A stretch of DNA of 64,000 bases, from assembly GCA_965219085.1 (NCBI GenBank), contig OZ244720.1, forward strand, positions 2,272,001 through 2,336,000. Reading direction: 5' to 3'. The first letter of the stretch is position 1. Each line of letters starts with the position of its first letter. Both the position numbers and the translations under genes were made by a program. Source of the DNA: Dehalococcoidia bacterium. Lineage in GTDB: Bacteria > Chloroflexota > Dehalococcoidia > UBA2979. This document shows, piece after piece, positions 39,927 to 64,000 of this stretch. The notes below the pieces were generated by a model. The model saw nothing but the letters and a program-made list of their open reading frames with translations. It ran no database searches and was not told where the DNA came from.

Positions 39927-43787
<3,861 letters not shown>

Positions 43788-47814: not shown

Positions 47815-47889
47815 TGGTGCCCCCGGGAGGATTCGAACCTCCGCACAGGGATTAGGAATCCCTTGCTCTATCCCCTGAGCTACGGGGGC
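47815..47889 (-). tRNA. tRNA-Arg(CCT)
   Basis: GCCCCCG acceptor, anticodon arm AGGGA-TTCCTAA-TCCCT, TTCGAAT, CCA, A20. Confidence 0.95.
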
Positions 47890-49674: not shown

Positions 49675-49750
49675 TGGTGGAGGCGAGGGGACTCGAACCC
49701 CTGACCTCGGCATTGCGAACGCCGCGCTCTCCCAACTGAGCTACGCCCCC
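49675..49750 (-). tRNA. tRNA-Ala(CGC)
   Basis: Cloverleaf with G3:U70, loop TTCGCAA, CCA. Confidence 0.96.
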
Positions 49751-51371: not shown

Positions 51372-51508
51372 GGAACCTCCAGGTGACGCTCGGCTGACGG
51401 CCCGCCGGGCGGGCAGGACGCCTGCGACAGGCTACCGCGCGCGCCTGCTAACGTCAGCAACGACGCCGCGCGACACTCGGGCGGGCGCGCGTCCCGTGGT
51501 CGGCGGCG

Positions 51509-54500
51509 TCAGAAGCGGAGCGCGGCCTGCCGCGCCGCTCCCGGCGGCTGACGCTCGTCGTCAGACGGGCTGGGCAGTTCGTCGGCGGTGAAGAGCGCCG
51601 AGCCGCAGACTTCGTCGAGCAGCACCGCGCCCCCGGCTGGAGCCGCACCGTCTCCTCCAACACCCAGAGCAGTTCGAGCAGTTCGCCGGCGAACTCCCAG
51701 CGATCAGGGCGGATCTCGTCAAGGTCCGAAGACTTCCGGCCCGAGCGATCGCGCTTGCGCCGGTCCAGCCACGACTTGACGACGTGCAGACCGGAGACGG
51801 AGTAGTCATAGACCTCCGGGCTGACGGGCGCGAACTCGCCGTCGCCGACGCGCAGCACGCGCTCGGCCTCGTCGTAGGAGTGGCCCTCCGGCAGCGGCGT
51901 CGGAGGCACCTCCTTCGTGTTGCGGGCCTCGCCGTGCGGGACGCCCGGCGGGCGACCGGGGCCGATGAAGCGCTCGCCGTAGGTGTGGAGGTGCAACAAG
52001 CGCTCGCCGAGGTCGGCGACGCGCGCGAACAGCGCGCCGTCCTTTGTGATCGGAAGCCGCGGCGGCGGCTGCTCCAGCTCGTCCCAGAAGCGCTCGACAT
52101 ACGAGGGTTGGGCGAGGATGCCGTAGGCGTATACGAACAGGCGCTCCGCCGTGGGGGGCCGCCCGTGCGCCTCGCCGATGCGCTCAAGGAGGCTCCCGGT
52201 GACGTTGGGCTCTGTCGCGTCCGCGTCGCGGTACAGGGGAATGACGTCCTTCGCTCCGCGGCCGCAAAAGTGGTCGAGGTCCGGGATGGCAGCCGATGCG
52301 GTCGCCGCCGGACCTGTGCCGAGGACTTTGGTCAGTAAGCTAGTGACATAAACCTGTCGTTCGCTATGGGCGCGATGCAAGGCTGGGCGACAGAAGTCGC
52401 CCAGCCTTGCATCGCGCAAGATGTGCTGACGGTCCAAGGACCTGTAGGCGTACGGTGCTAGACCGGGCGGCGGTGAATCGCGACGAAGTGACGCGATGGA
52501 CGGTTCAGTACGGTCGCCCACGAGTGGTGGGTACTCGCGGCGAATCGTACGGTCCCGTGTCTCGCGGAATAGATCCGCTCGCCCATCCGTGGAGTGTTCG
52601 AGCAGTGCCCGCCACCGGTCTGTAAGCGCCTGTGGCGTCTCGGCTATCGGCCACGTTCGTTTGAACTGCATGCCCGAGTGCTGCCACGGGAAGACATCGA
52701 TGATCGCGGGCCAGTCGAAGTAGCCGCCGGGTTCGGCTGGCATGAACGGCGCATCCCACCCTTCCGCGCAGTCGCGCCAGTCGAGGTCGTCGAGCGATTC
52801 GGCGGCGTCGAGCGCGCCGAGCTTCTGCTGCTCGCTGCCGGTGAGCCGCACCCTGTGGATCTTCGCGGGCTCTGCAGGTTCGGGCTTGCCGTTGCGGACG
52901 CCGATGGCGATGGCGACGGGCGTTCGGATGGCGAAGACGTTCTCCGTCTTGCGCGCCCCGAGGCTGTCGCCCTCGAGATCGATGATCCACAACTCGTCGA
53001 ATACCTCGCGCATCTTACGGCGCATCCCGGCGAAGGCCGGGCCGCGCAGGTACGACGAGGCAGTGATGAACGTGACGATACCGGCGTCGTTCGTCGAATC
53101 GAGCACCTTCCAGAGCGCCCAGCGCCAGAAGTAGACGTAGTCGTTGTAGAGGTTCTTGAGGTGGACGCCGCCGCCAGCCTCGCGCACGGGGGCCAGGAAG
53201 TCCTCAAGCAGTGGGTCGGCGTCCTCGTCCTCGTCGCCGTAGCGTACCCATCCGCCTTTGCGGCGATCGGGGTCATCGTCCGGGCCGCGCTGCTCGCGGT
53301 CATACGGCGGATTGCCGAGGCAGACGAAGATGCGTGTCTCCCGCTTCACATCCCTCGCACGCTCGCGCTCGTCAGTGAGGGCCTTGTAGAGCACGCCTTC
53401 CGCCAGCCGCGACTGGACGTTCGGGGACTCCAGTGTGTCGGCGAGGTAGACGAGCGGGTTACGGTCGGTCACGCCCAGTTCGCGCAGCCGCTGGGTGAGG
53501 CGCAACTGTGCGACCGCGTAGGGCCCGACGAGGATCTCGAAGGCGTGCAGCCGCCCCGCCAGGTCGCGCAGCCGCCCCGGCACGCCGCCCTCGCCAAGCC
53601 GGTCGCGCGCCGCCTCCGCCGCGCGCTGGAGCACCGCGAGGGGGTACGTGCCCGTGCCGCAGGCCGGGTCGAGCACCTCGACGCCGTCGTCGGCGAACCC
53701 CATCGGCTTGTTGAAGCGGGTGCGCAGCAGCTCCTCCGCGAAGCGCACCTGCGCGCGCACGACCTCGACGGGCGTGAAGTAAACTCCTCGGTTCTTGCGC
53801 AGCTCCGCGTCGTACGCGCCAAGAAAGTGTTCGTAGAAATACAACCACGGGTCGCGGTCGATCTCCTCCGAGGGGTTGAATGCGCCTTGCCATCCGCGCC
53901 CGGCGAGCAAGGCGCGGGCCTCGACGACGCCGACGGCCCGCTCCAGCAGGTCGATCGGCATCGACAGCTCTTCGCGGGCCTCGCGGTTCTCCAGCAGGTC
54001 CAGGGCGGTCGCCAGCAGGTCGTGCTGCCGCTCCCGTAGCCGGTCCGAGGCGAGCGCCTGGCGGAGGTTCTCCGCGCCCTCGAAGCGCGCCAGCAGCAGC
54101 GCGTACGTCACCGTCTGAGCATAGGCGTCCGCGAATTGTGCCGCGTTCGCGTCCGCGAAGAGCACGCCGCGCCACTCGCCGGCGATCTGGCTGACCGCGC
54201 TGCCCTCGCGGTCGAGCGCCTCGTGCACCTCGTCGCGGAGCAGGCGGGCGAGCGGGGCGAGGAACTCGGCGAGCCCGCGCGCCGTTCGTGGCGTAATCGG
54301 CTCGTGCATCAGGAAGTCGCGCAGCAACCGTTCGAGCTTCGTCAGCGCCGCCGCGTTGAGGCCCATCGCGCCCTCAGCGCTCACGTCGTCGGCGATGCGC
54401 ACACGCTCGCCGACGGGCTCGCCGCTGCGGAACAGGCTCCACTCGGAGCCGTCGGTGTAGATCAGGTTGGGCAGCGCCTGGAATCGCACCCACTGCCGGT

Positions 54501-54801
54501 GATCGCGTCCGCGCAAGCGCTCCGGCCTCGCGCCGCGTCCCGGCGGCTTGAGTTCGACGTGGCCGCAAAGCAGGCCGTCGGCGGTGACGCCGAGGTCGGG
54601 CCGCCCGATGTGGCCCTCGGCGCGAGCCTCCGTGCGCGAGGCGACCTCGATGGCCCACGCGTCGCCGCAAGCGCGCAGTAACTCGCCGACGGGCGCCTTG
54701 AGCTGGTCCTCGGGTTGCGCCGTGACGGGCAGCGCGAAGTTCGCCGCTACGGCTGCAGCGAAGTCCCGGACGGCGTCCTCGAACGGCTGGCCGACTGTCA
54801 T
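51509..54801 (-). CDS. Fused restriction-modification enzyme (PD-(D/E)XK nuclease, N6-adenine MTase, type ISP-like specificity domain); apparent 1-nt frameshift near 3' end
   Basis: RPD..VELK; GVYFTP, LDPACGTGT, GNPPY; YAYRSLDR, SWLDRR. Natural-looking tail LLDEV..LFTADELP..ERQPP..LRF* lies in another frame after the C5 run at 51630-51634. Confidence 0.85.
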
Positions 54802-59314: not shown

Positions 59315-59403
59315 GGCGTCGACATCCTCTCGGTCCGGGGAGGCTGTGATCTGATTCTACCGCGCCAAGGCCTCTCGGCGATGGCGTATCAACGCCCGAT
59401 CGC

Positions 59404-60300
59404 CTACAGGAGCACGCGTTTCGTCGCGTCGCCCGGGCGGCGGCGGAAGTCCGTGAGCAGGTGTCGGCGCCGCCCCGACTCGTCGATGTGCTCCTCGAGC
59501 CGGCAGCGCTGGCCCTCGAGCAGGTGGACGTCGACCTCCCGCACGTGCGCGACGACCTCGTCGCGCAGCTCGCGCGAGGCCGGGAAGTGCCCGGCGGCGT
59601 GCATGGCGATGTGCAGCTGGCGCGTCCCGATGCGCAGCAGCCAGCCGAGCAGCAGCTCGGCCCAGCCGAGGTGGAACGCCTCGTCGCCGAAGATCAGCGG
59701 GTAGCGACGCTCGGACGCCTCGTTCGCCGTAAAGAGCGCCGTCGGCCCGAAGTTGGGGCGGCCGAGGTCGCTGGCGGCGCGGTAGATGGCGCGCAGGTGC
59801 TCGTCGCCGGCGATGGCCTCGCCGCCGAAGTAGTGCCCGAGCCCCACGTCCTCGGCGCGCGCCTGCTCGTGGCGGGCGTAGGCCTGGTGCGCCCACTCCA
59901 GGAACGACTCGATCTCCCCGGGCAGGGCGGACTGCGCGGCGACGTGCTCGATCGCCTGGCGGACGAGCGGGACGGCGCTCTGGTATGCGCCGCGCCGCAC
60001 CAGCGACGCGGCGTCCGAGGTGCATAGGAACGCCCGGCTCCACAGCGAGGCGAGCGCGGCCATCGTCATCGTGCGCGCGCTGGGCGTGTAGCCGCTGGCG
60101 GCGAAGCGCGCCTGCACGTCGAGGCCCGCTTCGAGCAGGCGCAGGTCGTCGCCGAGCACGAAGCCGGTCTGCCGCCACGCGTCCTCGGCGGCGTCGGAGA
60201 GCGCATCGGGCTTGCCGGGCAGCGTCCACGAGTCGGGGACGCGCATGCCGGAGACGCGCTGCGGAGCGCCGAGGGGCGAGAGGTCGCCGTTGAAGGTCAT
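59404..60300 (-). CDS. Hypothetical protein
   Basis: Long ORF with host-like codon usage; ATG 60300 follows GAGG. Confidence 0.7.
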   Translation of the reverse strand: MTFNGDLSPLGAPQRVSGMRVPDSWTLPGKPDALSDAAEDAWRQTGFVLGDDLRLLEAGLDVQARFAASGYTPSARTMTMAALASLWSRAFLCTSDAASLVRRGAYQSAVPLVRQAIEHVAAQSALPGEIESFLEWAHQAYARHEQARAEDVGLGHYFGGEAIAGDEHLRAIYRAASDLGRPNFGPTALFTANEASERRYPLIFGDEAFHLGWAELLLGWLLRIGTRQLHIAMHAAGHFPASRELRDEVVAHVREVDVHLLEGQRCRLEEHIDESGRRRHLLTDFRRRPGDATKRVLL

Positions 60301-60327
60301 GCCCTCATTCTGGCCGATCGGACAGCT

Positions 60328-60376
60328 GCGGGGCAGGTTCTCGGTGTGCGTGCATGGTGGGTCCGAGGTGTACTCG
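60328..60376 (-). repeat. Displaced copy of the helicase 3' coding end
   Basis: 45/49 identical to 62701-62749; all four differences synonymous (EYTSDPPCTHTENLPR). Confidence 0.95.
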
Positions 60377-60474
60377 CTGATGGCGCAGGCGCCCCCGCCC
60401 ATGCCATGATGTCCTGCGGACGGAGAGCCAGCAGCGAGTGTCGAGTGAACGTCATGGCGCTGCCAAGAGCTATC

Positions 60475-60550
60475 TGGTGCCGGGGGCCGGGCTTGAACCG
60501 GCGACGCGCGGTTTTCAAGACCGCCGCTCTACCCACTGAGCTACCCCGGC
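60475..60550 (-). tRNA. Atypical tRNA: UGA (Ser) anticodon on a class I body
   Basis: GCCGGGG TA GCTC AGTGGGTA GAGC G GCGGT CTTGAAA ACCGC GCGTC GCCGG TTCAAGC CCGGC CCCCGGC A CCA; all stems Watson-Crick; 5-nt variable loop; A73. Confidence 0.9.
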
Positions 60551-60560
60551 TTCGGTAGGC

Positions 60561-60604
60561 GGTGCGAGGCGGGCTCCTCTTTACACGGCGAGCCCGCCTC
60601 CACC
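60561..60604. other. Strong hairpin between hypothetical gene and atypical tRNA
   Basis: GAGGCGGGCTC/GAGCCCGCCTC perfect 11-bp stem, extendable by GGTG/CACC. Confidence 0.6.
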
Positions 60605-60611
60605 GAATCCG

Positions 60612-61058
60612 CTAGAATGGTAGGTCGTCCACCTCCGGCTTCTTAAATTGGTACAGCGCTGGCTCTTCCTCACCGACACGCTCGATGCTGGCATGGCCTT
60701 GGAGCACCGCGTTGAGCGTCCGCAGCGGCACATTCAGGTGGGCGTCCCGCAGCGTGGTCGCGATTGTGGCGCGTGTGAGTGGCTTTCCAGCTTCGAGGAG
60801 GACTTCCACGATTGCCTTGGCGGGATCCGCTCGTACGAACCGGAATTCGCCGGTGGCGCCGGTCCCGGGTGGCCACCCTGCGATGCGGTGCGGTCCGCCC
60901 CCGAGTCGCTCCCACGCAGCGTCTCTGAGGGCTGCGTACTTGATGGCGGCCACATTGAAATTGATCCGGGCCTGACTCAACTGCGTATTCGCGTCAGCCA
61001 ATTGTTCTTCGGCGTCTGCGATGGATCGGAGAATTGCATCTGTGTAGTCGTCGTTCAC
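60612..61058 (-). CDS. Hypothetical protein (coiled coil plus possible winged helix; ends DDLPF)
   Basis: GAGGTG SD before GTG 61058; lower GC; AIVEVLLEAGKPLTRATIA. Confidence 0.6.
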   Translation of the reverse strand: MNDDYTDAILRSIADAEEQLADANTQLSQARINFNVAAIKYAALRDAAWERLGGGPHRIAGWPPGTGATGEFRFVRADPAKAIVEVLLEAGKPLTRATIATTLRDAHLNVPLRTLNAVLQGHASIERVGEEEPALYQFKKPEVDDLPF

Positions 61059-61288
61059 TCGTATACACCTCTCTGAGAGATCGAGTATATGACGGATGTC
61101 AACCACCGATCTATCTAATATCGCTAGTGGGTTACGAATGATGGAACAGAGTGCTCTTGTGCTGCGCGTACGTCCCCACAGAAGCCGCGCGCCATGTGGG
61201 GCACTGCTGGTAGATCCTGTCCCTCCGGTGCCCCAGTGCATCGGGCCGTGGGAGCGAGCGGTCTAGCCCCGAACGGGGCTGAACTCAG

Positions 61289-62652
61289 GGTCACGTCCCT
61301 GCAAGTGGTGTAACAGTGCACCATCCTGATCATTTGCTAGCTGGCGGTCTGCAGTAGCACCTCCTCGCCTGAGGCGACCTCGGCCACGGCCGCCGGCAGC
61401 GGCTGCAGCATCGTCATGTAGCGCCGCCCCTCCGCCCACTCGTCGTGCTGCTCGGCGAGCACGGCGCCGACCAGCCGCACGACGGCGGCACGGTTGGGGA
61501 AGATGCCGACCACGTTGGTGCGCCGCCGGATCTCCTTGTTGAGGCGTTCCAGCGGGTTGTTCGACCAGACCTGCCGCCAGTGGACCGGGAAGGCCGTAAA
61601 CGCCAGGATCTCCGGCCCGGCGTCGGCGAGCAGCGCCGCGGCCTCGGGGAAGCGCTCGGCGAGCTGCTCCACCACGCGGGCGTGTTGGGCCTGCACCTCG
61701 GCCGCCGAGGACTGCTCGTAGATCGTCCGCACCGTCGTCGCCACCAGCTTCTCGGCGCTCTTCGGCACCCGGGTCAGCAGGTTGCGCATGAAGTGCGTGC
61801 GGCAGCGCTGCCAGGAGGCGCCGGCGAAGACCGTCGCGATCGCCTCCCTGAGGCCCTGGTGCGCGTCCGAGGTGACGAGCTCGACGCCGGACAGGCCGCG
61901 CGCCACGAGCCCGCGCAGGAAGCTCAGCCAGAACGCCCCGTCCTCGGAGGTGCCGACGTCGATGCCCAGCAGCTCGCGCTTGCCGGAGGCGTTGACGGCG
62001 GTGGCGACGACCACGGCCACCTGCACGACGCGGCCCTCCTCGCGCACGAGCTGGGTGAGCGCGTCGAGCCAGAGGTAGCGGTAGGGGCCCGAGTCGAGGG
62101 GCCGCTCGAGGAAGCTCGAGACGACCTCGTCGAGTTCAGCGCAGATGCGCGAGACCTGGCTCTTGGAGATGCCGTCGCAGCCGAGCGAGCGCACGAGGTC
62201 GTCGACGCGACGGGTCGAGACGCCCTCGACGTAGGCCTGCGTGACCACGGAGACCAGGGCGCGCTCCGAGCGCCGCCGCGGCTCGAGCAGCGAGGGGAAG
62301 TAGCTGCCCTCGCGCAGCTTCGGGATGCCCAGTTCGATCGTGCCCACACGCGTGTCCCAGCGCCGCGGCCGGTAGCCGTTGCGCCGGGTCAGGCGCGTCT
62401 CGCTGCGCTCGCCGTGGGCGGCGCCGATCTGCTCGGAGACCTCGGCGTCCATCACCGCCTGGGCGAGCACCGCGACCGCCTCGCGCAGAAAGTCGAGGTC
62501 CGCTCCGTCCGCCTGCTTGCGCAGCAGTTCCAACAAGTCCACGCTCTCCTTGACCACAGTCGTCCTCCTCCACGTGACTCTTCTTCTTGTGAAGGATGGC
62601 GCTGTGGTCTCCTACGTCTACCTCCTGTGACACCACTTCCTGGGACGCTACT
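61289..62652 (-). mobile_element. IS256-family insertion sequence
   Basis: 25-bp imperfect terminal IRs (GGTCACGTCCCTGCAAGTGGTGTAA / AGTAGCGTCCCAGGAAGTGGTGTCA); 8-bp direct repeat GAACTCAG at 61281-61288 and 62653-62660. Confidence 0.93.
61337..62557 (-). CDS. IS256-family transposase
   Basis: RNGYRPR, IPKLREGSYFP, GVSTRRV, YLWLDA, TSDAHQGL, WQRCRTHF, NPLERLNKEIRRRT. Confidence 0.96.
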   Translation of the reverse strand: MVKESVDLLELLRKQADGADLDFLREAVAVLAQAVMDAEVSEQIGAAHGERSETRLTRRNGYRPRRWDTRVGTIELGIPKLREGSYFPSLLEPRRRSERALVSVVTQAYVEGVSTRRVDDLVRSLGCDGISKSQVSRICAELDEVVSSFLERPLDSGPYRYLWLDALTQLVREEGRVVQVAVVVATAVNASGKRELLGIDVGTSEDGAFWLSFLRGLVARGLSGVELVTSDAHQGLREAIATVFAGASWQRCRTHFMRNLLTRVPKSAEKLVATTVRTIYEQSSAAEVQAQHARVVEQLAERFPEAAALLADAGPEILAFTAFPVHWRQVWSNNPLERLNKEIRRRTNVVGIFPNRAAVVRLVGAVLAEQHDEWAEGRRYMTMLQPLPAAVAEVASGEEVLLQTAS

Positions 62653-62676
62653 GAACTCAGTGCGTGGGCGGCTGCT

Positions 62677-64000
62677 TCACGCTCTGACGTACGCCGATCG
62701 GCGCGGCAGGTTCTCGGTGTGCGTGCACGGCGGATCCGAGGTGTACTCGGTGCACCCAAGGAACTGGCCGTAGCGCCCGTACCGCGTGACCAGCACGCCG
62801 ACGCCGCACGTCCGGCACACCGTCGGCGGGCGGGCGCACGAGGCGTTGGTGCACCTCGCGCGGCCGTCGGCGGGGATGGCGTAGCCGGCGTTGCAGTTGG
62901 CGCACCTCGGGGCGAGGTGCCTGCACATCGGGTGGTTCGAGCAGCGCAGGTTCCTGCCGCTCTGCGAGGCGACCAACTTGCCGCCGAGACACCGAGGGCA
63001 CTCGGGCGCGTCGTCTCCGGGGAGCTCGCCGAGCTGGCGCAGATCGGCGCCGTCGCGCCGTAGCTCGGTGACGAACGCCGACGGAAGCTGCGGGTCGGTG
63101 ACGAGGTAGGCGCCGCGCCGCGCGCGCGTCATCGCGACGTAGAACAGGCGGCGCTCCTCGGCGTGCGGGAACCCCGTCGCCGCGCCCGAGGGGAGCACGA
63201 GGTCCAGCAGCGGGTCGTCCTCGACCTGTGACGGGAAGCCGCGACGCTCGTTCTTGAGGTCGAGCACCACGGCGTAGTCGGCCTCGCGGCCCTTCGCGCG
63301 GTGCACGGTGCTGAACTCGACGCGGAGAGGCGCGACGCCCGCCGGGGGGCGCGCGCTGTTCCGGTAGCGGCCGAGGACGAGCACGGAGGGCGAGTCGTGG
63401 CGGTCGGCCGCGGCGCGCTCCTTGATGTCCTGCAGCGCGCGCCAGAGGCCGCGGCCGGGATCGCCGTCGGCGACGATGGTGACACCGTCGTCGCGGTTCT
63501 CGCGAGCCGACCGCAGCGGGCGCTGCGTCTGCGCGGGGTTGCGCTGCACGAAGGCCGTCGAGGGCCGGAGGATGCCGTCGGCGAAGCGGAAGGTCTGGCT
63601 GAGCGTGCGCTGCCGCACGTGGCCGAGGTAGTCGCCGCAGTTGCGCACCAGCCCCACGTCGCTCCCGGCGAAGCGGTAGATCGACTGCCAGTCGTCGCCG
63701 ACGAGGAAGTACGCGGTGTCCGGCCCCTTCAGCGCTTCGATCAGTCGCATCCGTCCCGCGGAGATGTCCTGGAACTCGTCGACGAGGATGTGGCGGTACG
63801 ACGCCCGCCACGCACCCTCGCGTATGAGCGCGGCGGCGCGGTTGATGAGGTCGTGGAAGTCGACCGCGTTCTCCTCGGCGAGCATCGCCTCGTAGCGCTC
63901 GCGCACCTGCTCGAAGACGGCGAGGAAGCTCTCGCTGCGCCGCCGGTCCGAGGAGGCGCGGGCGCGCTCGCGCAACTCGGCGGGCGAGGCGCCGCTGGTC
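62677..64000 (-). CDS. UvrD-like (helicase IV-type) DNA helicase with C-terminal Zn-finger repeats (5' truncated)
   Basis: ILVDEFQDIS, VGDDWQSIYRFAGS, STVHRAKGREAD, EERRLFYVAMTRA, several CxxC; frame open to the window edge. Confidence 0.9.
   Translation of the reverse strand, partial: TSGASPAELRERARASSDRRRSESFLAVFEQVRERYEAMLAEENAVDFHDLINRAAALIREGAWRASYRHILVDEFQDISAGRMRLIEALKGPDTAYFLVGDDWQSIYRFAGSDVGLVRNCGDYLGHVRQRTLSQTFRFADGILRPSTAFVQRNPAQTQRPLRSARENRDDGVTIVADGDPGRGLWRALQDIKERAAADRHDSPSVLVLGRYRNSARPPAGVAPLRVEFSTVHRAKGREADYAVVLDLKNERRGFPSQVEDDPLLDLVLPSGAATGFPHAEERRLFYVAMTRARRGAYLVTDPQLPSAFVTELRRDGADLRQLGELPGDDAPECPRCLGGKLVASQSGRNLRCSNHPMCRHLAPRCANCNAGYAIPADGRARCTNASCARPPTVCRTCGVGVLVTRYGRYGQFLGCTEYTSDPPCTHTENLPRRSAYVRA

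What the first reader, a model, noticed from the sequence alone, without database searches (positions are those of the whole stretch)
60475..60550. Non-canonical tRNA: serine anticodon UGA on a Thr/Phe-like class I body
Seen: a perfect 76-nt cloverleaf with CCA, loop CU-UGA-AA, 5-nt variable loop, A73, G1-C72 and C2-G71. Known: bacterial tRNA-Ser has a long variable arm (the main SerRS determinant) and G73; G1-C72/C2-G71/G35 are Thr determinants, and the loop is one base from tRNA-Thr(UGU); naturally mistranslating tRNAs exist (Streptomyces tRNA-ProA). Inference: it may insert a non-Ser residue at UCN codons, or act uncharged or as an anticodon-nuclease decoy. Intact stems argue against decay, and it lies in accessory cargo.
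Basis: partly seen in the sequence, partly recalled or inferred. Interest (0 to 1): 0.8.

Follow-up and report, generated by a model that had tools for sequence, protein, structure and literature searches.

The report
Phe-type tRNA carrying a serine anticodon
An intact extra tRNA gene, brought in on a small mobile DNA insert, has the body of a phenylalanine tRNA but the anticodon of a serine tRNA, so it might occasionally put the wrong amino acid into proteins, although nothing yet shows that it is used.

Summary
Window 60475-60550 (- strand) is a 76-nt class I tRNA with encoded CCA, anticodon UGA, A73, G1-C72 and C2-G71 (ARAGORN; Rfam RF00005 69.2 bits). It is an extra gene: the genome also has canonical Ser(UGA), Phe(GAA) and Thr(UGU) tRNAs.

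The body is Phe-type, not Thr-type. With the loop masked, its nine best matches are one twin and eight tRNA-Phe(GAA).

It lies in a 2.37-kb insert that a same-genus genome lacks. The insert has 52-nt direct repeats and also holds an ORFan and a later IS256-family element.

A scan of one genome for each of 185,579 species gave 20 class I UGA hits. Only one is an intact close relative: 86% identical, in a Chloroflexi MAG, and also an extra gene. The two share G26, U34, G35 and A39 against 10 of 10 Phe tRNAs.

I found no dedicated synthetase, and PheRS keeps its anticodon-binding domain. UCA codons are not depleted and align with Ser, never Phe.

Best reading: an anticodon-shifted tRNA-Phe paralogue that is poorly charged, giving at most weak Ser-to-Phe misreading. 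Expression and charging are untested.

The parts
60475..60550 (-). 76-nt class I tRNA gene with a Phe-type body, anticodon UGA, A73 and encoded CCA
   Evidence: ARAGORN; Rfam 69.2 bits; arm-by-arm parse; nearest neighbours; alignment
60515..60517 (-). Anticodon UGA (+ strand tca), positions 34-36 of the tRNA
   Evidence: unchanged in contigs of runs X1 and X2
60566..60600 (-). Very stable hairpin (11-bp G+C stem) between the ORFan stop and the tRNA 5' end. It has no U tract. It may be a terminator or a processing element.
   Evidence: fold of 60551-60615: -38.7 kcal/mol, z -5.4, 0 of 200 shuffles as good; the terminator consensus scan found none
60612..61058 (-). 148-aa ORFan (P0002) upstream of the tRNA on the same strand: a long N-terminal helix plus a short helical C-terminal part, with no known family
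   Evidence: no Pfam or meaningful NCBIfam hit; only 2 homologues among 5.8 billion proteins, at 72% and 48%; low-confidence model, pLDDT 62
60328..60379 (.). Left copy of the 52-nt direct repeat that flanks the insert
   Evidence: the repeat finder D1, 90% identity; alignment with the empty site of G014
62701..62752 (.). Right copy of the 52-nt direct repeat, lying in the 3' end of the UvrD/helicase IV-like gene
   Evidence: helicase assignment
60380..61288 (-). Main part of the older ~0.95-kb cassette (tRNA plus ORFan), 62.6% G+C against 69.8% for the genome. The remaining 40 bp are at 62661-62700.
   Evidence: absent from G014; G+C; single copy in the genome
61289..62651 (-). IS256-family insertion sequence (transposase at 61337-62557) that landed inside the cassette, with imperfect inverted repeats
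   Evidence: Pfam Transposase_mut 4.4e-132; inverted repeats; ends match six other copies in the genome; boundaries read
61280..61288 (.). 9-bp target-site duplication TGAACTCAG of the IS (second copy at 62652-62660)
   Evidence: read directly

Best explanation
This is a genuine, structurally intact tRNA gene that arrived by horizontal transfer on a cassette of about 0.95 kb. It is an anticodon-shifted paralogue of tRNA-Phe. Acceptor stem, D arm, variable loop and T arm are of the Phe type, while the anticodon arm (U31-A39, loop CUUGAAA) is built like that of a UNN/UCN reader.

Shown: its structure, its Phe-type body, its supernumerary status, the insert that carries it, and one twin in another genome.

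Inferred: if transcribed, it would be matured like any tRNA. SerRS should not charge it, because it has no long variable arm, has A73, and has C2-G71. The single housekeeping PheRS, which has an anticodon-binding domain, should charge it only poorly, because G34 and A35 are lost. A36, A73 and U20 are kept.

Whatever fraction is charged would carry Phe to UCA, and by wobble to other UCN serine codons. That gives low-level Ser-to-Phe misreading. It would be buffered by the canonical tRNA-Ser(UGA, CGA, GGA) and by the rarity of UCA, about 2.4 per 1000 codons.
For: A real tRNA. On an alignment with 10 Phe tRNAs and the twin, 251 of 252 stem cells pair.

Phe-type body:
- Among 40 relatives, the six best non-self BLAST hits are all Phe(GAA), at 84-78%.
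- With the loop masked, the ranking is the twin at 84.3%, eight Phe at 84.1-76.8%, then Thr(cgt) at 75.4%.
- The acceptor stem plus A73 is identical to G028 tRNA-Phe.

Extra gene: canonical Ser(tga), Phe(gaa) and Thr(tgt) are all present.

Acquired: G014 has the empty site. G000 has a 2.37-kb insert with 52-nt repeats and lower G+C.

Not a private accident: the G041 copy is 86% identical, intact, carries CCA and is also an extra gene. It shares G26, U34, G35 and A39 with the orphan against 10 of 10 Phe tRNAs.

Identity rules, from passages and section 33 of PMC9976931:
- Phe identity is G34, A35, A36 and A73, plus U20 and U59 in E. coli.
- Ser identity rests on the long variable arm and G73.
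- C2-G71 is listed as an antideterminant against SerRS.

Synthetases: one PheS, a PheT with the FDX-ACB domain, and single ThrRS, SerRS, ProRS, HisRS and GlyRS.

Recalled, not seen: the E. coli amber suppressor tRNA-Phe(CUA) of Normanly et al. 1986 inserts Phe in vivo although G34 and A35 are changed. I saw only the citation; the paper is not held.
Against: - No expression or charging data exist. No RNA run was listed and the consensus scan found no promoter.
- Two of the three anticodon determinants for PheRS are gone, including G34, which the review calls the strongest determinant in T. thermophilus. Charging may therefore be nil.
- UCA is not depleted compared with a relative that lacks the tRNA: 2.43 against 2.05 per 1000 codons.
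- G000 UCA codons align with Ser in 89 of 109 cases and with Phe in 0 of 109. The genome shows no trace of pressure from misreading.
- Only one intact close relative turned up in the scan of one genome for each of 185,579 species, and none in the metagenome scan. That is weak support for a selected function.
- The twin's 31:39 position is a C.A mismatch.
Confidence: 0.45

Rival explanations
1. Inert passenger. The tRNA gene hitch-hiked on the cassette, is not aminoacylated (or not expressed) in this host, has no function, and is intact only because it arrived recently.
For: - Extreme rarity: only one intact close relative among the 20 hits of the species-genome scan.
- The strongest Phe determinants are lost.
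- No genomic adaptation.
- No promoter match.
- An IS has already hit the cassette.
Against: - All 21 stem pairs are Watson-Crick and CCA is kept.
- The twin, at 86% identity, keeps the same 7-nt loop and shows double-sided stem changes at 5:68 and 28:42 relative to the orphan.
- The neighbouring ORFan is intact and conserved in length with its two homologues.
Confidence: 0.3
2. A non-translational role: an uncharged regulatory tRNA, a decoy for an anticodon nuclease, or a docking site for integrases in a variable hot spot.
For: - Both copies lie in accessory, defence-flavoured surroundings: a Type ISP restriction enzyme and a helicase here, and a QueC-like/DpnII-MboI nuclease fusion in G041.
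- The site is a hot spot. G018 and G008 carry a different ~480-bp insert there.
- A precedent exists for an island-flanking pseudo-tRNA with a regulatory effect outside translation: B. cereus tRNA-Other (PMC3399842; only the abstract in the search listing was seen).
Against: - No nuclease or partner gene is shared between the two loci.
- The only T-box-like RNA in the genome has a UGG specifier and scores below threshold.
- The direct repeats of the insert do not include the tRNA, so it is not the attachment site of this insert.
Confidence: 0.12
3. One reading: a Thr-like tRNA charged by ThrRS, or by another synthetase, which inserts Thr or another residue at UCN codons.
For: G1-C72, C2-G71 and G35 fit the acceptor and anticodon elements given for Thr identity (passages of PMC9976931; the specific pairs are partly recalled). 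The anticodon is one base from UGU.
Against: - U36 is missing.
- The three Thr tRNAs of this genome and the three of G041 have U73.
- Body similarity to Thr is lower than to eight Phe tRNAs.
- G1-C72 and C2-G71 are equally features of this clade's tRNA-Phe.
Confidence: 0.05
4. A dedicated mistranslation system of the tRNA-ProX/ProRSx type: a hybrid tRNA charged efficiently by its own synthetase.
For: Hybrid identity, mobile context, and a second copy in another genome.
Against: - No second PheS and no second class IIa synthetase core: 5 PF00587 hits, namely ThrRS, SerRS, ProRS, HisRS and GlyRS.
- The second FDX-ACB match is a pheT 3' fragment with an in-frame stop.
- The adjacent gene is a 148-aa ORFan that does not resemble a synthetase, and it is absent next to the G041 copy.
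Confidence: 0.03
5. An artefact, or a private mutation in the genome's only Phe or Thr(UGU) gene.
For: None found.
Against: Canonical Phe(gaa), Thr(tgt) and Ser(tga) genes exist elsewhere in the genome. Contigs of two runs reproduce the locus without a difference. A homologue carries the same loop.
Confidence: 0.01

Closest known systems
tRNA-ProX (ProA/ProN/ProT) of Streptomyces and Kitasatospora, the natural bacterial mistranslating tRNAs (review PMC11415595, sections 17-18 read)
   Same: A bacterial class I tRNA whose body belongs to one amino acid and whose anticodon belongs to another. It is a supernumerary gene beside a full canonical set.
   Different: tRNA-ProX forms a family in many Actinomycetes and works with a dedicated ProRSx, and mistranslation has been shown experimentally. 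Here only two intact copies are known, no dedicated synthetase was found, and nothing is shown about charging. The combination is also different: a Phe body with a Ser anticodon.
Alloacceptor anticodon shifts, also called tRNA remolding (abstracts of PMC3923123 and PMC4783518 in the search listing)
   Same: [quoted passage not shown] Its origin is explained by anticodon substitutions in a duplicate.
   Different: Functional shifts happen between families whose synthetases read the anticodon. A shift into Ser cannot create a SerRS substrate in bacteria, because Ser identity lies in the long variable arm. Here the result is a mismatch rather than a clean change of identity, and the gene is mobile.
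allo-tRNAs and other hybrid tRNAs found in metagenomes (Mukai et al. 2017, PMC5389517; abstract and two passages seen)
   Same: Rare, non-canonical tRNAs with mismatched identities, found by large sequence scans.
   Different: allo-tRNAs have 8/4 or 9/3 acceptor/T-stem geometry. As I recall, not from a call, they have Ser-type identity with non-Ser anticodons. This tRNA has the normal 7/5 geometry and the opposite arrangement: a non-Ser body with a Ser anticodon.
B. cereus tRNA-Other, an island-flanking pseudo-tRNA (PMC3399842, abstract in the listing)
   Same: A tRNA-like gene associated with accessory DNA that may act outside translation.
   Different: tRNA-Other is described as a predicted pseudo-tRNA. 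The present gene is a perfect cloverleaf with CCA and a decoding-competent loop.
tRNA gene fragments and hybrids at prophage or island junctions (PMC9897764, abstract in the listing)
   Same: Most other class I 'Ser(UGA)' hits of my scans look like this, with defective acceptor stems and no CCA. One example is the Pseudomonas group at a prophage end.
   Different: The window's tRNA is full-length with 7 of 7 acceptor pairs. It lies 95 bp inside the insert, not at its junction.

Membership tests
tRNA (Rfam RF00005) | Cloverleaf that scores above the family's gathering threshold | tested here: met
   69.2 bits against 29, model positions 1-71 of 71; ARAGORN
Bacterial tRNA-Ser | Long variable arm (class II), the main SerRS determinant | tested here: not met
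   The variable loop is 5 nt, GCGUC. The four canonical Ser tRNAs of the genome are 86-91 nt. Rule from PMC9976931.
Bacterial tRNA-Ser | Discriminator G73 and G2-C71 | tested here: not met
   It has A73 and C2-G71. C2-G71 is listed as an antideterminant against SerRS (Table 3 passage).
Bacterial tRNA-Ser | A serine anticodon | tested here: met
   UGA at positions 34-36
tRNA-Phe | Anticodon G34 A35 A36 | tested here: not met
   It has U34 G35 A36, so 1 of 3 is kept
tRNA-Phe | Discriminator A73 and U20 | tested here: met
   A73 is present. The D loop AGUGGGUA gives U20.
tRNA-Phe | Body outside the anticodon loop closest to tRNA-Phe of related genomes | tested here: met
   Eight of the nine best loop-masked matches are Phe(GAA). 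The six best non-self BLAST hits in 40 relatives are all Phe.
tRNA-Phe | Aminoacylation by PheRS | not testable with these tools
   Needs an in vitro or in vivo charging assay
tRNA-Thr | Anticodon G35 U36 | tested here: not met
   G35 is present but position 36 is A
tRNA-Thr | Body and discriminator like the clade's Thr tRNAs | tested here: not met
   Thr tRNAs of G000 and G041 have U73. The best Thr match is 75.4%, below eight Phe tRNAs.
tRNA-ProX-type deliberate mistranslation system | A dedicated synthetase paralogue encoded with the tRNA | tested here: not met
   One PheS. The 5 class IIa cores are the 5 housekeeping enzymes. The neighbouring gene is an ORFan.
tRNA-ProX-type deliberate mistranslation system | A conserved family across many genomes | tested here: not met
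   Only one intact close relative among the 20 hits of the scan of one genome for each of 185,579 species. None among the 8 metagenome hits or the 11 viral hits.
allo-tRNA | 8/4 or 9/3 acceptor/T-stem geometry | tested here: not met
   Standard 7-bp acceptor stem and 5-bp T stem
tRNA fragment or att-junction hybrid | Truncated or mismatched acceptor stem at an element boundary | tested here: not met
   7 of 7 acceptor pairs and CCA. The insert's repeats lie 95 bp away and do not overlap the tRNA.

The most novel reading that the evidence does not exclude
The window's tRNA and its twin in G041 are members of a small mobile family of Phe-bodied tRNAs that evolved to read serine UCN codons. The family would be kept by selection, as suggested by the shared changes at 26, 31, 34, 35 and 39 and by intact stems at 86% identity. 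The housekeeping PheRS would charge them with Phe well enough to cause regulated, cassette-borne Ser-to-Phe mistranslation. That would be a second natural type of deliberately mistranslating bacterial tRNA, one that needs no dedicated synthetase.
Probability: 0.15. Interest if true: 0.75.

Novelty: new member of a known kind. Interest (0 to 1): 0.42.

Why it matters
Natural tRNAs whose anticodon contradicts their body are the raw material of codon reassignment and of programmed mistranslation. Very few bacterial cases have been worked out: tRNA-ProX and the Sec/Cys hybrids, according to the review read.

If this tRNA is charged with Phe and used, it would show that a mobile cassette can make a rare serine codon ambiguous in a high-G+C genome without any dedicated enzyme. 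It would also be a simple system for studying how far PheRS depends on the anticodon.

If it is inert, it is a clean example of an intact-looking tRNA that annotation pipelines will label tRNA-Ser although it cannot be one.

Tried and rejected
- Promoter and terminator consensus scan of 60300-61350: 0 sites of either kind. This is uninformative for an organism whose promoter type is unknown.
- No RNA holder was listed by the look-up of sequencing runs, so expression could not be examined. Runs X5 and X6 (other studies) hold only short low-depth pieces of the cassette that do not cover the tRNA.
- The MFE fold does not give the cloverleaf, for either this tRNA or its twin. That is common for G+C-rich tRNAs. 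The cloverleaf lies 1.2 kcal/mol above the MFE.
- Cassette against plasmids and phages: only generic tRNA similarity, for example phage tRNA-Trp at 82.6% over 69 nt. Nothing matched the ORFan or the flanks.
- ORFan: no relative in viral contigs. The model has pLDDT 62 and pTM 0.32, too poor for a fold search, so none was run.
- No shared genes between the two tRNA loci.
- T-box idea: the one T-box-like RNA scores 39.9 bits (threshold 93) and has a UGG specifier. Rejected.
- Second FDX-ACB domain: a pheT 3' fragment with an in-frame TAG, not a second enzyme.
- The Pseudomonas-prophage tRNA-like group shares a 49-nt core at 92% identity. It has G.A at 2:71, no CCA, and lies at a prophage end after the lysis genes. 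I treated it as a different thing. A phage search with it found nothing.
- Literature searches returned no paper that describes a Phe-bodied tRNA with a Ser anticodon. This holds only for the library searched. Supplementary tables, for example of tRNAscan-SE 2.0 or Mukai 2017, could list such genes and were not available.
- Normanly 1986 could not be read. What I say about it is recalled.
- tRNAscan-SE isotype models are not available here. I used nearest-neighbour comparison instead.

Full report
**1. The observation.** ARAGORN finds a 76-nt tRNA at window 60475-60550 on the - strand with anticodon tga. Rfam's tRNA model aligns it over all 71 positions at 69.2 bits, E 5e-13, the best of three tRNAs in the window.

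The arm-by-arm parse gives these parts:
- acceptor GCCGGGG/CCCCGGC
- D stem GCUC/GAGC with loop AGUGGGUA
- G26
- anticodon stem GCGGU/ACCGC with loop CUUGAAA
- variable loop GCGUC
- T stem GCCGG/CCGGC with loop UUCAAGC
- A73 and encoded CCA

All 21 stem pairs are Watson-Crick. The anticodon occupies + strand 60515-60517. Contigs of two runs from one study cover 60200-61316 without a single difference. They may be the samples the genome was assembled from, so this confirms the assembly rather than adding independent support.

**2. It is an extra gene.** The genome is one contig of 3.31 Mb with 69.8% G+C. It encodes canonical class II Ser tRNAs (cga, gga, gct, and tga of 90 nt), Thr (cgt, tgt, ggt, all with U73), Phe(gaa) with A73, and tRNA-Sec.

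**3. What body it has.**
- A BLAST search of the 76 nt against 40 relatives found no copy. The six best non-self hits are tRNA-Phe(GAA) of other families of the same class, at 84-78% identity. In the 18 same-genus genomes the best hit is an elongator tRNA-Met at 79% or 75%.
- With the 7-nt loop masked, I ranked it against all tRNAs of G000, all 48 of G041 and eight relatives' Phe tRNAs. The order is its G041 twin (84.3%), eight Phe tRNAs (84.1-76.8%), then Thr(cgt) at 75.4%.
- The acceptor stem plus discriminator is identical to G028 tRNA-Phe.
- Against 10 of 10 Phe tRNAs it differs at five positions: 26 (G for A), 31 (U for A), 34 (U for G), 35 (G for A) and 39 (A for U). The 31:39 pair is thus flipped from A-U to U-A, not broken.
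- The resulting arm, GCGGU-CUUGAAA-ACCGC, has the same stem as this genome's tRNA-Trp and tRNA-Tyr. It matches its tRNA-Ser(UGA) arm at 15 of 17 positions (read). So it looks like a competent reader of U-starting codons.
- On the 12-sequence alignment the cloverleaf holds in 251 of 252 stem cells, with nine pairs showing double-sided changes.

**4. Where it sits.** The gene next to GAPDH (window about 59357-60323) is conserved in 18 of 18 same-genus and 5 of 6 other same-family genomes. The similarity stops near 60380. In same-genus G014 this gene abuts the 3' end of a UvrD/helicase IV-like gene directly.

G000 instead has 2.37 kb between two 52-nt direct repeats, 60328-60379 and 62701-62752, which are 90% identical. 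On the - strand the insert reads as follows:
- 40 bp
- an IS256-family element at 61289-62651, with a Mutator-type transposase, a 9-bp target duplication TGAACTCAG, and ends matching six other copies in the genome
- a 148-aa ORFan
- a very stable hairpin (z -5.4)
- the tRNA
- 95 bp

The IS therefore landed in an older cassette of about 0.95 kb. The cassette has 62.6% G+C and is single-copy in the genome.

The ORFan has no family and only two homologues among 5.8 billion proteins. G018 and G008 carry a different insert of about 480 bp at the same site, so the site is a hot spot.

**5. How common is this.** I scanned for a class I pattern: D stem GCUC/GAGC, six bases, the loop start YUUGAA, and the spacing to GUUC of the T arm.
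- It gave 20 hits in one genome for each of 185,579 species, and 11 hits in 2.9 million viral contigs.
- A narrower pattern gave 8 hits in 241 million metagenome records.
- Of the 20 genome hits, 5 have a fully paired acceptor stem, and ARAGORN of those Ser(tga): L041, L043 and L053.
- Most of the rest have mismatched acceptor stems and no CCA. They sit in tRNA arrays or at element ends.
- Only L053 (G041, titled a Chloroflexi MAG) is a close relative. It is 85.7% identical over the full length and has acceptor GCCGAGG/CCUCGGC, A73, CCA, the same loop, G26 and A39. Its 31:39 position is a C.A mismatch.
- G041 also has canonical Ser(tga), Phe(gaa) and Thr(tgt).
- Its copy lies beside a lower-G+C stretch with a QueC-like/DpnII-MboI nuclease fusion. 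It shares no gene with the window's cassette.
- The metagenome scan returned no further close relative.

**6. Who could charge it.** The identity rules below come from the review PMC9976931 (passages and section 33).
- Ser identity rests on the long variable arm and G73, and C2-G71 is listed as an antideterminant against SerRS. This tRNA fails all three.
- Phe identity is G34, A35, A36 and A73, plus U20 and U59 in E. coli. G34 is called the strongest determinant in T. thermophilus and is read by the B8 domain. This tRNA keeps A36, A73 and U20 and loses G34 and A35.
- Thr identity uses acceptor pairs and the anticodon. G35 fits and U36 does not, and the clade's Thr tRNAs have U73.
- The genome has one PheS, a PheT with the FDX-ACB (B8) domain, and single ThrRS, SerRS, ProRS, HisRS and GlyRS.
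- A second FDX-ACB match is a pheT 3' fragment with an in-frame stop.

So there is no dedicated enzyme. PheRS is the only synthetase with several determinants left. From memory, the E. coli amber suppressor tRNA-Phe(CUA) inserts Phe in vivo. I saw only the citation, and the paper is not held.

**7. Does the genome feel it.** UCA makes up 2.43 per 1000 codons in G000 and 2.05 in a 400-kb sample of G014, which lacks the tRNA. In 142 orthologue pairs, G000 UCA codons align with Ser in 89 of 109 cases and with Phe in 0 of 109. The reverse control gives Ser in 78 of 92. UCA is therefore ordinary serine, and there is no avoidance. That fits recent arrival, weak activity or no activity.

**8. Verdict.**
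- The feature is real and the description accurate.
- The body is Phe-type.
- The gene was acquired on a small cassette.
- It has one twin elsewhere, with shared derived changes at positions that matter for Phe identity.
- Its function is not shown.

I rate 'anticodon-shifted tRNA-Phe paralogue, poorly charged, at most weak Ser-to-Phe misreading' at 0.45. The inert passenger gets 0.30, a non-translational role 0.12, and the remaining readings together less than 0.1. No paper found by my searches describes this combination. The closest worked-out cases are tRNA-ProX and anticodon shifts. Unlike tRNA-ProX, this tRNA has no dedicated synthetase, no family breadth and no experiments behind it.

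Noticed in passing
window 43217-43313 (+): ARAGORN reports a 97-nt 'tRNA-???' with a 4-base anticodon (gtgg). Rfam finds no tRNA there, and the site lies inside a 1286-aa open frame (39927-43787, - strand). It is probably a false positive.
   Followed up: partly
window 51454-54801 (-): A 1115-aa Type ISP restriction-modification enzyme (Type_ISP_C 1.5e-68 plus a weak N6_Mtase match), about 6 kb from the tRNA. tRNA-Arg(cct) at 47815-47889 and tRNA-Ala(cgc) at 49675-49750 lie just beyond it, so this may be a larger accessory region.
   Followed up: no
G000:C1:964130-964196 (-), outside the window: A degenerate tRNA-like sequence, 76% identical to the orphan over 65 nt, preceded by a partial tandem repeat of its D-arm region. 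ARAGORN did not call it.
   Followed up: partly
G000:C1:25392-25667 (-), locus L118 1501-1776: A second copy of the PheT C-terminal anticodon-binding (FDX-ACB) region, about 3 kb from the real pheT. It has an in-frame TAG and is fused behind an unrelated repeat protein. This looks like a duplicated gene end left by an insertion into the 3' end of pheT, the same style as the 52-nt repeat at the helicase gene.
   Followed up: partly
L025 about 1017-1500 (G018) and L024 about 1009-1515 (G008): At the same site between the helicase and the conserved gene, two same-genus genomes carry a different small insert. It encodes a helical protein of about 130 aa that is 67-71% identical in DNA to G000:C1:1103258-1103603. 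The site is a hot spot for small cassettes.
   Followed up: partly
L027, L028, L030, L032, L034, L035, L037 (viral contigs); L042 (Pseudomonas cedrina); L046 (Xenophilus): A conserved tRNA-like element with the core G26-GCGG-Y-CUUGAAA-U-CCGC-GCGUC. It has G.A at 2:71, no CCA, and a constant 3' tail. In L030 it lies at a prophage end just after the lysis genes. The 5' acceptor half co-varies with positions 66-68.
   Followed up: partly
L041 5418-6656 (Beggiatoa MAG) and L063 480-5533 (metagenome): tRNA arrays with unusual members. L041 has three class I 'Ser(tga)' tRNAs in a row. L063 has 19 tRNAs in which Ser(tga) and two Leu tRNAs are only 71-75 nt, that is, without long variable arms.
   Followed up: no
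L043 6307-6381 (-) (Dehalococcoidia MAG): Another intact class I tRNA with anticodon UGA, a fully paired acceptor stem, G73 and encoded CCA, with an A.C mismatch at 31:39. Its body is not Phe-like. This is a second, different isotype/anticodon conflict.
   Followed up: no
G000:C1:2078786-2078966 (+), locus L140 1501-1681: A T-box-like leader below the Rfam threshold (39.9 bits against 93), with an apparent UGG (Trp) specifier.
   Followed up: partly
L117 3167-4327 (-) (G041): A 386-aa protein that combines a QueC-like segment with a DpnII/MboI-type restriction endonuclease domain. It lies in a lower-G+C stretch next to the twin tRNA and is a possible defence gene.
   Followed up: no
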